Source: Camelus ferus (taxonomy: Eukaryota). Taken from it: DNA of 64,000 bases. This document shows, one piece after another, positions 8,931-46,322 of the stretch. Location of the stretch: the NCBI RefSeq assembly GCF_009834535.1, contig NC_045696.1:58530001-58594000 (forward strand), written 5' to 3'. Numbering within the stretch: the first letter of the stretch is position 1; each line of letters begins with the position of its first letter. The notes below the pieces were generated by a model. The model was not told the origin of the DNA. It saw only the letters and a list, made by a program, of their open reading frames with translations, and ran no database searches. Both the position numbers and the translations under genes were made by a program.

Positions 8931-9094
8931 TTTTATTAGCTCTCTGGGAGTGAGCTACATGATGTTGTGCACTGAAAATTACCCAAATGTTCTGGCCTTC
9001 TCTTTCCTGGATGAGCTTCAGAAGGAGTTCATTACTACTTATAACGTGATGAAGACAAATACTGCTGTCAGACCATACTGTTTCATTGAATTTG
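8931..9094 (+). CDS. SEC22A: SEC22A internal coding exon (longin domain; exon 3 in human numbering, inferred)
   Basis: Acceptor ctgtag| at 8929-8930 and donor |gtaagg at 9095. Translates (N)[54 protein letters not shown](D), matching SEC22A as I recall it. 164 nt. Confidence 0.96.
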
Positions 9095-10245: not shown

Positions 10246-10440
10246 ATAACTTCATTCAGAGGACCAAGCAGCGATATAATAATCCCAGGTCTCTTTCAAC
10301 AAAGATAAATCTATGTGATATGCAGATGGAAATCAAGCTGAGGCCCCCTTATCAAATTTCCATGGGTGAACTGGGGTCAGCCAATGGAGTCACATCAGCA
10401 TTTTCTGTTGACTATAAAGGTGCTGGTAAGATTTCTTCCG
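10246..10440 (+). CDS. SEC22A: SEC22A internal coding exon (exon 4)
   Basis: Acceptor catag| and donor |gtgagt. Translates (D)[64 protein letters not shown]. 195 nt, phase compatible with the previous exon. Confidence 0.96.
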
Positions 10441-25456: not shown

Positions 25457-25614
25457 GGGGGGAGGGTATAGCTCAGTAGTAGAGTGCATGCCTAGCATGC
25501 ACGAGGTCCTGGGTTCAATCACCAGTATCTCCATTAAATAAATCAATGAATGAATAAATTAATAAACCTGATTACTCCCCACTAAATAAATAAATAAACC
25601 CAAAAACAACAGTA
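25457..25614 (+). mobile_element. tRNA-derived SINE (Vic-1-like, camelid type)
   Basis: GGGGGGAGGGTATAGCTCAGTAGTAGAG A-box head, GGTTCAATC B-box and A-rich tail. TSD caagagtggccatcc (25441-25455) / caaaaatggccatcc (25615-25629). Confidence 0.88.
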
Positions 25615-26854
25615 CAAAAATGGCCATCCCTTATTTGGCCATCAAAAGCTTAAGTTTCTTTAATTATAATACAAAATATTGTTTGGATTCTTCGGTAAGG
25701 TAAACTTGTATACTTTATAAGTGTTATTCCTATAATCTGTTCAGTTATCAAGTGGCTTTATGCTTGAGGCCCATATTAAGGATTTCTTTTTTCCTTAGAG
25801 GACAGTTCCGCCTAACATACTGCTCAGAGAGGGTGCAGAGGTAGGGAGGGAGGGATGCAAAACATGACTGATTGGTAAACCAGTTGGATAGATTTTTAGA
25901 TTGTGAGGTTGTTTTTTCCTCCAGTGATAGAAAATTTGGTATTGGTACTTTACAAAGAAATTAGTTTTTTATTTTCGTATTAAAATCTCAAGGAAATTGA
26001 TTGGGAGACCAAGCAGTCACCTTGGGCACAAAAGAAACTGAAGAAAATGTTATCCTATATTAGCATTTTCTACTGAACTTGAGGAATAAATACTTTTTGT
26101 GAAATATGGGTTTTTGTGAATTGTCTGGGAAGCTTTTCCGTTGTAATGGCTGAATATAAGTTGCAAAGATTTAAGCTCTTCCTTATATTAATGTTCCACC
26201 TCATTAACTTCATTGTTAGGGCTTTTACACTTCAGTGATTTAAATAAAACGATCTAAATGTAGTTCTGTTGTCCTCTCTTTCCCTCTCTCTCCTTTCTGA
26301 GGTTTAGATTGATTATGTATTTAGTTTTGTGTTTTCATTTAGACTCTATTGTTAATTCTGTTAACTGCAGGAGGATGATGAAGGGAAGCTATTGTATATC
26401 TAAAGGTCTTATGCTCTGAAGCCCTGACAGATAAGGGAATGTGTTTGTAAAATAAACCGGTCACTTCAGCTAGTGTTTTAGTATTTTTACCTTCAAGTGG
26501 TCTTCAGAGACCAGGAACCTCATAACTATAAAAGTCCATTCTCTTGTAGAGTTCAGATTAGTTATTATATATGAGCTTTAACATCTGTCTCATGGTATTT
26601 ATGGCCCTGGAACCCAGATAAGGGAGAACTTTGCTTAAAAGCAAGCTGTTTGTCTTTAAAAATGTTTTCTAAGCATTTTCAGAAAAAGTAGGAATTATGC
26701 AGTGTGTTTCTGAGCAAAGTCACCTTTGCAAACGGTAGACATATTTAGGCAGTTAGGTTTTTTCCTATATGATTTACTGCCAAATATGAGCACTCCTTAG
26801 CACTGTGTACCCAAAATGCAAGTTAGGTGTCTTTATTAAAAATGTAGAGAAAAA

Positions 26855-26960
26855 CTGTTCACTTTGGCAGCACATATACTAAAATTGGAAAGATACAGAG
26901 AAGATTAGCATGGCCCCTACACAAGGATGACATGCAAATTCATGAAGCATCCCATATTTG
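26855..26960 (+). pseudogene. U6 snRNA processed pseudogene
   Basis: Full-length match to U6 (ggcagcacatatactaaaattggaa...acagagaagattagcatggcccct...). A-tail at 26961-26969. TSD core gtagagaaaaa at 26844-26854 and 26970-26980. Confidence 0.96.
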
Positions 26961-27202
26961 AAAAAAAAAGTAGAGAAAAAGAAGTTAATTCAACTTGAGT
27001 TCAGGGGAATGAAGCTGTCATCTTGTCAGACATTTTGCATTTTAAAAAATATTTATTACTAAGATACATATATTAAATAATTTTATGATGATTCGTCTAT
27101 ATTTGACCCATTTAAATTAAGCAGTGAGTTTCATTTTACATAAGTGTAGGTATTAATGTGAGATACTCATGTTCATTTCTAACTATTTGTTTTATTTTTC
27201 AG

Positions 27203-27319
27203 CTCACCAGAGGCTGGAAACCAGCAACTCTGGCAGGGATTGTGGCATTTATCCTTAGTCTTTTATGTGCAGCTCTGAATCTAATTCGAGGCTTTCATGC
27301 CATAGAAAGTCTCCTGCAG
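27203..27319 (+). CDS. SEC22A: SEC22A exon 5 (first transmembrane segment), with an apparent +1 frameshift
   Basis: Acceptor tttttcag| and donor |gtactg. Starts (A)HQRLE; the continuation [33 protein letters not shown] is in the next frame. Length is 117 nt, but the flanking phases require 3n+2 (116). Confidence 0.93.
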
Positions 27320-29539
27320 GTACTGTGCTATTTTTGCAATTTCAGGTGACTGTGCCTTTTGATTCTACTTGTTACACGATTGATTTGAATTGATTTGGGT
27401 ATTAGTACAACTTATAATGCATGGTCAGATTTTGTATTCTTTATACCTACTCTAGTTTCCCCTCTAAAAACAGGTTTCTTGTTGGCTTCTTTGGCTTAAT
27501 TAGCACATACTTATTTATTATCTCCATTGCAGGAGGCATTGTTTAGAGGTATTCTGGGGACACCAAGGTATGTGTGACATGGGCTCTGCAGTCTCAGACC
27601 CCAGAGCTGAATTGGGGAGGTAAAGAAGGCCACAAGTAAATGTCAAGTACAGAAGGTCTGGAAGGGGAGCAGTCATTGTGAGGGAGAAGGAAGCTCATGG
27701 AGGGGGGGTGGGCTGGGCCAGGAAGGATCTGAGTGGACAGAGAGGAATAGAAGGAAGAAGAGGGTGTTTGTGGACAGGATTTTGTCCTATCTCTGGGTGG
27801 TCCTACTTATCTGCTCTTTTTTCGTTTTTGTTGGCGGCTACCTGTGAAAACACTCATTTTCTTCAGATATTGCCAACTATTTTGTTTTCCAGTTGAGTTT
27901 CTTCTAGAGACTACAGCTATCAGAATATACTTTTTCTCTTATTCTTTTTGTAAACTTTTGAAACTTCCTTTCTTAATGTTAAGCACATTTCAGCTTTCCT
28001 TTTCCTATTTCCACTTTTCTCTGAAGATTTTTTTTTTTTGACACTTCCACATTGTAAATTAGTTCTCTTTTTTTTGGGAGGGGGCCAGCATTAGGCTAAG
28101 AGTATCATTTGTAAAAACCCGCTCAAGACACCTTATATTGTGTTTTTAAATTGCTGTTAGTTTGGGGAATACGCAAGAGAGTGCCATTCTGAGTACTTTC
28201 TGAATATCCTCAGTTGTGTGACACTAATAGCAGAGAACATTACAGGTTCCAGGCAACTGAGCTGTCCCTTGAGGGGGTTTGGGGTCTACTCATGACTTCC
28301 CAGTTCCTTTCCAGAAGATCCTGGGCCTTTAGGTAAAGCCCCTCTTCCCTTTCAGGCACAGGACAGCTGGCTACTGTCTATTGGCATTCCTGCCCCTGTT
28401 CCGTAGCCAGTTCAGCTTTATTCCAGCAGGAGTTCAGTTTCGAGCCAGTTAAACAACCTGCCAAAAGAAAAACAAAGGCAATTTGGAGACTGCCAAGTGA
28501 AAAAGCTAATAAAAAAGGTCCTCTTTGCCTTTTTTTTTTTTTAATGTGATGTAGTGGAAAGAAGAGTAGCATAGGTATGTGGAGAGTTGATTTTTATTTG
28601 TGGAAGAAAGAAGGAGGGTTGGCTCCATCTCAGCTTCTGATTAGTTCTATGACCTTGAATAGCTCACCTTACTTTCTGGTCGTCAGCTTCATTGCTTATG
28701 AAATGAAGGAGAAAGGTGGATTTGATGAGTATTTCTCTAAGTATAGGACACATTTACCTCTGGCTACACAACAGATGACTAGGTAGTAGAAGGGTAAACA
28801 TTTTTAGTTTTAAGGGTTAATGTATTTAATGTATATTAATGTATAATGTCTCTTTGGTAAGGGATACTAGTTTCGATTAATGATAGTGATATAAAATTTT
28901 CCTTTTAAAAGAAATTAATTTTAATAAAAAGTGACCTTTATGAAATACCTTAATAAATAATGGTATAATTAGTATTTAAAGTTGGCAAAAATTGTGAATG
29001 TGGTACTCTGAAGTTAAAATTCTATTGTTAAAAAAAATTCTCTGGTTGTTTGAAATGAGCAGATTAATAAATAAGGGGCAGGAGCAGGCCTGGGTAGAGA
29101 GAAGCAGAGCCTTACTACCTCTGACTTGGAAGACAGTACATAAGTTGGGGAACCTGTGGTTTAGGCCACATTACTTGTAAGTTAAAATTGAGGAAAGCTG
29201 TCCATATTTCACAAAACCTTTTAACGGGTGATTTTTTTCAGGCACTCATATCTTATCCCTCCTCTTCCTAGACTGATTCTTTCCTCTGATTCACAACTTC
29301 AAAACTAAGCAAAGTAGTTTAAACACAGCTTTTCATGCTTTTAAACCACTATCCCTGGCTAATGTTTGCCTTGATTCCTAAGTGTTTCATGTTCTCTCTC
29401 TGGTTAGTAATGTCTGCCTCATCGTATTTGAGGTTTTCAGAATACTAATCTGATTAAACTAATTACCACTTTTGTGTAACTGACTGATAGTGCTAGATTT
29501 CTCAGCCTACTTACATTTTAAAAAGACCACCGTTACTGT

Positions 29540-39038: not shown

Positions 39039-39104
39039 AGTGATGGTGAGGATTTTAATTACATCGTTGCGTTTTTCCTTGGAACAGCAGCCTGCCTTTA
39101 CCAG
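39039..39104 (+). CDS. SEC22A: SEC22A exon 6
   Basis: Acceptor ttttacag| and donor |gtaggt. Translates [22 protein letters not shown]. 66 nt, phase 0-0. Confidence 0.95.
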
Positions 39105-46121: not shown

Positions 46122-46322
46122 TGTTATTTACTTGTCTACTACACCAGCTGGAGGAATGTCAAATCTTTTTTGACTTTTGGCTTAATCTGTCTATGCAACA
46201 TGTATCTCTACGAACTGCGCAACCTCTGGCAGCTTTTCTTTCACGTGACTGTGGGAGCGTTTGTTACACTACAGATCTGGCTAAGGCAAGCCCAGGGCAA
46301 GGCTCCTGATTATGATGTTTGA
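46122..46322 (+). CDS. SEC22A: SEC22A last coding exon
   Basis: Acceptor ttttcaacag|. Translates [66 protein letters not shown], with TGA at 46320-46322. Confidence 0.96.

What the first reader, a model, noticed from the sequence alone, without database searches (positions are those of the whole stretch)
27203..27319. Apparent +1 frameshift in SEC22A exon 5 removes all transmembrane segments
Seen: the exon reads CTG GAA A CCA GCA ACT, one A more than L-E-P-A-T requires (AAA at 27218-27220). Its 117-nt length breaks the phase 1-to-0 requirement. From the canonical acceptor it translates [18 protein letters not shown] (TAG at 27256-27258). Known: SEC22A is a longin protein with C-terminal membrane anchors, and a stop with downstream exon junctions is an NMD substrate. 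Inference: the other four exons and all splice sites are intact, which argues against an old pseudogene. The options are an assembly or base-calling error (most likely a priori), a recent loss-of-function allele, or a lineage-fixed change.
Basis: partly seen in the sequence, partly recalled or inferred. Interest (0 to 1): 0.75.

Follow-up and report, generated by a model that had tools for sequence, protein, structure and literature searches.

The report
Extra base in camel SEC22A exon
One extra A breaks the reading frame of the otherwise perfectly conserved membrane-trafficking gene SEC22A in this camel genome assembly, but it is likely an assembly error, because other conserved genes in the same assembly carry single extra bases, though no sequencing reads could be checked at the site.

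Summary
In detail: AAA at 27218-27220, a 117-nt exon where phase needs 116, and a stop at 27256-27258 upstream of the membrane helices. Nothing else is damaged: 306 of 306 compared residues equal alpaca SEC22A, and all 207 orthologous records spanning the site read through. No reads could be laid, and no Camelus SEC22A record was found, so the decisive test is open. Controls in the same assembly gave six breaks in conserved exons, all +1 insertions: five in 4 of 50 clustered protocadherin exons, one in the bradykinin B1 receptor. The one I could check is absent from another Camelus ferus record, three dromedary records and alpaca. Titin's large exons are clean, so errors in unique DNA are rare. 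Verdict: likely consensus error (0.87); private or segregating null allele 0.09; fixed loss 0.03. The scan has not noted this gene on other DNA, but noted similar +1 breaks in this assembly.

The parts
8931..9094 (+). SEC22A coding exon 2 (longin domain part), 164 nt, AG/GT intact
   Evidence: 54 of 54 residues identical to alpaca P0121; Pfam Longin PF13774, E 1.9e-15; splice sites
10246..10440 (+). SEC22A coding exon 3, 195 nt, ends in phase 1
   Evidence: 64 of 64 residues identical to alpaca P0121; donor GT
27203..27319 (+). SEC22A coding exon 4, 117 nt where 116 are needed; encodes the first membrane helix in the downstream frame
   Evidence: hydrophobicity windows 184-214 of the 307-aa orthologue P0014
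27218..27220 (+). AAA run holding the one extra A (+1 frameshift)
   Evidence: 207 of 207 orthologous records spanning the site are in frame
27256..27258 (+). Premature TAG in the shifted frame (198-aa product in 307-aa numbering)
39039..39104 (+). SEC22A coding exon 5, 66 nt, phase 0-0
   Evidence: part of the 121 of 121 identical downstream residues
46122..46322 (+). SEC22A last coding exon with the normal TGA stop
   Evidence: identical to alpaca

Best explanation
The extra A is likely a one-base consensus error of this assembly, so the animal would carry a normal 116-nt exon and a full-length SEC22A. The frameshift and early stop are shown in the assembled sequence. That they are absent from the animal is inferred: a two-A run was likely called as three when long reads were merged and was missed in polishing. 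The sequencing method itself is shown by no call.
For: (1) No other lesion: 60/60, 54/54, 64/64, two junction codons, HQRLE and 121/121 residues match alpaca P0121, 306 of 306 compared. (2) 207 of 207 SEC22A records spanning the site are in frame (209 of 266 records hold the exon's later part; 2 start after the site), and none holds a frameshift peptide. (3) The assembly has a class of such breaks. 4 of 50 clustered protocadherin first exons are split by five one-base insertions. The single-copy bradykinin B1 receptor has one more in its last helix. Six of six are +1 (p 0.016 at equal odds). (4) The protocadherin gamma-A2 insertion is absent from a Camelus ferus record of another assembly (582/583 identical upstream), three dromedary records and alpaca. 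(5) Short consensus indels that cause frameshifts are the commonest long-read assembly error (PMC8081667, passages) and favour homopolymers (PMC8574707, passages). (6) SEC22A is conserved: missense decile 4, and loss fraction 0.016 in the row found under a recalled Ensembl id (PMC13754592 supplement).
Against: No reads were laid on the site, and no Camelus SEC22A record turned up, so nothing tests this base directly. Unique DNA of this assembly is mostly clean: titin frames of 13,942 aa and 8 non-clustered protocadherin frames of 7,750 aa are unbroken, and 1 break was found among 149 GPCR matches (these were the best 147 of 1641 candidates, a set biased against broken genes). Five of the six control breaks lie in a paralogue cluster where polishing is harder than in SEC22A, and only one of the six was checked against other camels. 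A run of two is a short homopolymer. Real inherited gene breaks in camels are noted by the scan (unchecked). A polymorphic allele would give the same protein-level picture.
Confidence: 0.87

Rival explanations
1. The A is a real, young loss-of-function allele carried by the sequenced animal, probably heterozygous or at low frequency. Its message would be degraded by nonsense-mediated decay, and any protein would be a soluble 198-aa longin fragment without membrane helices.
For: The stop is 61 nt before the next junction and 127 nt before the last, beyond the 50-55 nt rule (recalled). An intact rest of the gene is expected of a young allele too. Unique coding DNA in this assembly has few breaks. 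AA to AAA is also a normal slippage mutation (general knowledge).
Against: The gene is constrained. A rough count gives about 180 breaks of this kind genome-wide (range 5-1000, from 1 break in about 185 kb; it assumes the bradykinin receptor break is an error), against a few real +1 alleles in constrained genes per haploid genome (recalled from human data).
Confidence: 0.09
2. SEC22A has been lost, fixed or nearly so, in this camel species or population within the last one to two million years.
For: Not excluded, because no Camelus SEC22A record was seen. SEC22B and SEC22C exist as paralogues (PMC6523435, passages). The loss fraction across mammals is small but not zero.
Against: There is no second lesion and no residue change in 306 against alpaca. 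With about 690 non-synonymous sites and a recalled neutral rate near 2e-9 per year, a loss older than 2-3 million years should have left changes. Alpaca is intact. No paper on it appeared in searches (listings only).
Confidence: 0.03
3. The A is real but bypassed by another splice acceptor that restores the frame and keeps the membrane helices.
For: AG sites opening an exon at 27129, 27150, 27213, 27225 or 27237 all give open, in-frame exons.
Against: The canonical acceptor has the best pyrimidine tract (0.82 against 0.35-0.71). The spacing across the site is the same in all 206 records where it could be measured. No transcript evidence was seen.
Confidence: 0.01

Closest known systems
Mammalian SEC22A (alpaca XP_072820075.1 = P0121; 307-aa form such as walrus P0014)
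   Same: Exon order, splice sites and 306 of 306 compared residues match alpaca; longin domain PF13774; follows PDIA5 on the same strand.
   Different: One extra A in coding exon 4 of this assembly. The alpaca model carries a 30-aa extra exon that is out of frame here.
Residual short-indel consensus errors of long-read vertebrate assemblies (PMC8081667, passages; the unpolished TLK1 frameshift example)
   Same: A single-base indel in an otherwise intact conserved gene, with sister cases in the same assembly.
   Different: Not proven here, since no reads were laid; the sequencing method of this assembly is not shown by any search.
Unitary pseudogenes and validated mammalian gene losses (PMC5865188, passages)
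   Same: A frame-breaking change within the central part of the coding sequence, in conserved gene order.
   Different: One lesion only, no sign of relaxed selection, and no validation by raw reads, which that study required.

Membership tests
SEC22A orthologue | N-terminal longin domain | tested here: met
   PF13774 on window 8932-9093, E 1.9e-15; closest solved chains are SEC22b
SEC22A orthologue | Sequence orthology and position after PDIA5 | tested here: met
   306 of 306 residues equal alpaca SEC22A; PDIA5 exons lie upstream on the same strand
SEC22A orthologue | C-terminal membrane helices in frame with the longin domain | tested here: not met
   In the assembled sequence the stop comes before the hydrophobic windows 184-214 and 227-247; the helices are intact in the downstream frame. 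Four helices is recalled; only two passed my threshold.
Assembly consensus indel error | Base absent from accurate reads of the same animal | not testable with these tools
Assembly consensus indel error | Base absent from other genomes or transcripts of the species | tested here: inconclusive
   No Camelus SEC22A record was found; alpaca lacks the base
Assembly consensus indel error | Like errors elsewhere in the assembly | tested here: met
   Six +1 breaks in five control genes; one shown absent from other camel records
Unitary pseudogene / fixed gene loss | Further inactivating changes or relaxed selection | tested here: not met
   No second lesion; 0 residue changes in 306
Unitary pseudogene / fixed gene loss | Lesion shared by independent individuals or sister species | tested here: inconclusive
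   Absent in alpaca; no Camelus record seen

The most novel reading that the evidence does not exclude
The A is real and common or fixed in a Bactrian-lineage camel, making these animals natural knockouts of SEC22A, a non-SNARE longin whose knockdown changes lipid-droplet number and size through the RAB18 pathway (PMC10641524), in a mammal known for fat storage.
Probability: 0.03. Interest if true: 0.55.

Novelty: not a real feature. Interest (0 to 1): 0.1.

Why it matters
If it is an error, it matters only as a caution: this assembly holds isolated +1 insertions in conserved exons, so single-lesion gene losses called from it need read support. If it is a real allele, it would be a natural null of a poorly studied ER protein tied to RAB18 and lipid-droplet control (PMC10641524, passages), and of some interest for genetic load in a small camel population. 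Only a common or fixed null would surprise a specialist.

Tried and rejected
Reads: no reads or contigs were laid on the site, so the base is untested. Run index: 14 DNA or unlabelled runs hold 0.98-0.99 of 129 sampled words of window 26700-27900 and none holds all. One run (X1, 0.99) misses one word and 13 miss two or three. The 29 words that span the AAA would give about 3 sampled words (chance of at most one: 0.16). That none is complete fits an error; that X1 misses only one fits a real allele in X1 or an unrelated variant. The differences are under five words and unlaid, so I count them as no evidence. Two RNA runs with share 0.06 are likewise no evidence. Camelus SEC22A proteins: none among the best 120 of 178 hits, 6 hits, or cluster listings that show at most 15 of up to 40 members read; the largest clusters (135, 119, 82 members) were seen only in part, so absence means little. 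The exact look-up of a 167-aa part of the alpaca protein found nothing. Second copy or haplotig: one match only. Old pseudogene: rejected. Exon skipping as rescue: skipping joins phase 1 to phase 0 and stays out of frame. Controls dropped: the LRRCT search gave one match and was useless; one decayed protocadherin-like match, L018, had no long frame and about 26% identity; two short non-clustered protocadherin frames, L028 and L029, were not resolved (split first exons recalled); an LPAR4-like gene ends at a 100-N run; three GPCR matches covering profile 1-223/225 were not fetched (intron recalled). PDIA5 exons matched only in part and showed no frame change, but coverage was incomplete. Programmed ribosomal frameshifting was not pursued: no orthologue has the extra base. 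Literature: SEC22A with camel gave 3 papers, 2 listed, unrelated by title and abstract start; two searches listed nothing on this gene. Supplements of bioRxiv preprints were not seen, and the PMC13754592 workbook was cut when stored and showed no per-species table.

Full report
Observation. The window reads a canonical acceptor ending at 27202, then CTCACCAGAGGCTGG-AAA-CCAGC, with AAA at 27218-27220 and a GT donor at 27320. From the acceptor the frame is [18 protein letters not shown], with TAG at 27256-27258; one base further on, the frame continues [10 protein letters not shown]. The stretch has one match in the own genome, a 2.09-Gb assembly in 2043 contigs.

Gene anatomy. A search with the upstream exon returned SEC22A orthologues, best alpaca. 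The window holds five coding exons: 8931-9094, 10246-10440, 27203-27319, 39039-39104 and 46122-46322. The first coding exon is 3.3 kb upstream of the window, and PDIA5 lies before it. The exon before the site ends in phase 1 and the one after starts in phase 0, so 116 nt are required and 117 are present. Against alpaca P0121, 60/60, 54/54 and 64/64 residues, two junction codons, HQRLE, and 121/121 downstream residues are identical: 306 of 306 compared, with one junction codon left out because the alpaca model has an extra exon there. Of 266 records gathered, 209 hold the exon's later part; 207 span the site and all are in frame, 2 start after it, and none has a frameshift peptide.

What the break would do if real. 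The product would be 198 aa in 307-aa numbering. It keeps the longin domain (residues 38-117 of P0014) and loses the hydrophobic windows at 184-214 and 227-247 and everything after. The stop is 61 nt before the next junction and 127 nt before the last, so decay of the message is predicted by the 50-55 nt rule (recalled). Five nearby AG sites would restore the frame, but all have weaker pyrimidine tracts than the canonical site. SEC22A lacks the SNARE coil, sits in the ER, binds RAB18, and its knockdown gives fewer, larger lipid droplets (PMC10641524, passages).

Direct tests. No reads or contigs could be laid on the site. The run index shows 14 DNA or unlabelled runs with 0.98-0.99 of the sampled words and none complete, but the differences are one to three words and point both ways, so I give them no weight. 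No Camelus SEC22A record was found in two searches and three cluster look-ups, which showed the large clusters only in part.

Control: does this assembly make such breaks? Of 50 clustered protocadherin first exons, 4 have short open frames. Each is split into overlapping frames offset by one extra base, and one has a second extra base near its end: five insertions, no deletion. For gamma-A2, a Camelus ferus record from another assembly (582/583 identical upstream), three dromedary records and alpaca all read through the site without X. That break is therefore peculiar to this assembly or this animal. Among 149 GPCR matches (the best 147 of 1641 candidates, so biased against broken genes) I fetched 10 with short cover or short frames. 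The bradykinin B1 receptor has one extra base in its last helix, and both frames match the human protein on either side. One further gene ended at a 100-N run and was dropped. Six of six control breaks are +1, as in SEC22A (p 0.016 at equal odds; 0.0014 if deletions are twice as common, which is recalled).

Results against this reading. Titin's eight large frames (13,942 aa) and eight non-clustered protocadherin frames (7,750 aa) are unbroken. Unique DNA thus shows about 1 break in 185 kb (the GPCR share, about 0.12 Mb, is my estimate from the listed spans), which projects to roughly 180 genome-wide with a range of 5 to 1000. Five of six control breaks lie in a paralogue cluster that is harder to polish than SEC22A, and only one was checked against other camels. 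The scan's unchecked notes include other +1 breaks in this assembly judged likely errors (GRAMD1C, a MUC13 copy) and a DNMT3L frameshift said to be missing from other camel data, but also real inherited breaks (KCNMB3, EGFEM1). I tested none of these.

Comparison with what is known. Short consensus indels that cause frameshifts were the commonest error of long-read vertebrate assemblies before polishing, and unpolished loci kept them (PMC8081667, passages). Such errors favour homopolymers and include A/T insertions (PMC8574707, passages; microbial genomes). Gene-loss screens require raw-read validation for this reason (PMC5865188, passages). SEC22A is in missense decile 4 across 462 mammals, and the row under its recalled Ensembl id gives a loss fraction of 0.016 (PMC13754592, passages and supplement rows). 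The locus is an SEC22A orthologue. It fails the test for an established pseudogene. Its filing as an assembly error rests on circumstantial tests only. Searches listed no report of SEC22A loss in camels (listings only).

Verdict. Likely one-base assembly error, 0.87; real private or segregating null allele, 0.09; fixed loss, 0.03; real but bypassed by splicing, 0.01. Shown: the extra base, the frame, the intact rest of the gene, the +1 class in this assembly, and one control absent from other camels. Inferred: that this base belongs to that class. Interest 0.1.

Noticed in passing
L065 (G000:C6:86395000-86398000), about 1712: Bradykinin B1 receptor gene with one extra base in the last membrane helix; both frames match the human receptor. 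Error or real allele is untested.
   Followed up: partly
L015, about 2281 (G000:C3, protocadherin gamma-A2): One extra A splits the first exon; absent from other Camelus ferus, dromedary and alpaca records.
   Followed up: yes
L014 about 1402; L016 about 1659; L017 about 1585 and 2719: One beta-like and two alpha-like protocadherin first exons split by single extra bases; cluster names inferred from order and paralogues; not checked against other camels.
   Followed up: partly
L069 (G000:C37:51539500-51542500): An LPAR4-like receptor gene (name recalled) stops at a 100-N run and does not resume after it: an assembly gap or withheld stretch.
   Followed up: no
G000:C1:58529423-58529520, just upstream of the window: The 30-aa extra exon of the alpaca SEC22A models is present here but changes frame next to an A-rich run; probably a cryptic, non-conserved exon.
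   Followed up: partly
window 25462-25533 (+): Weak tRNA-like Rfam match (38.6 bits) in the intron, likely part of a tRNA-derived repeat.
   Followed up: no
intron before the exon, a few hundred bases upstream of 27203: A short stretch followed by an A-run resembles a U6 snRNA retrocopy (resemblance recalled on reading; not tested).
   Followed up: no
L018 (G000:C3:98811500-98815500): Decayed protocadherin-like sequence with no long open frame and about 26% identity to neighbours.
   Followed up: no
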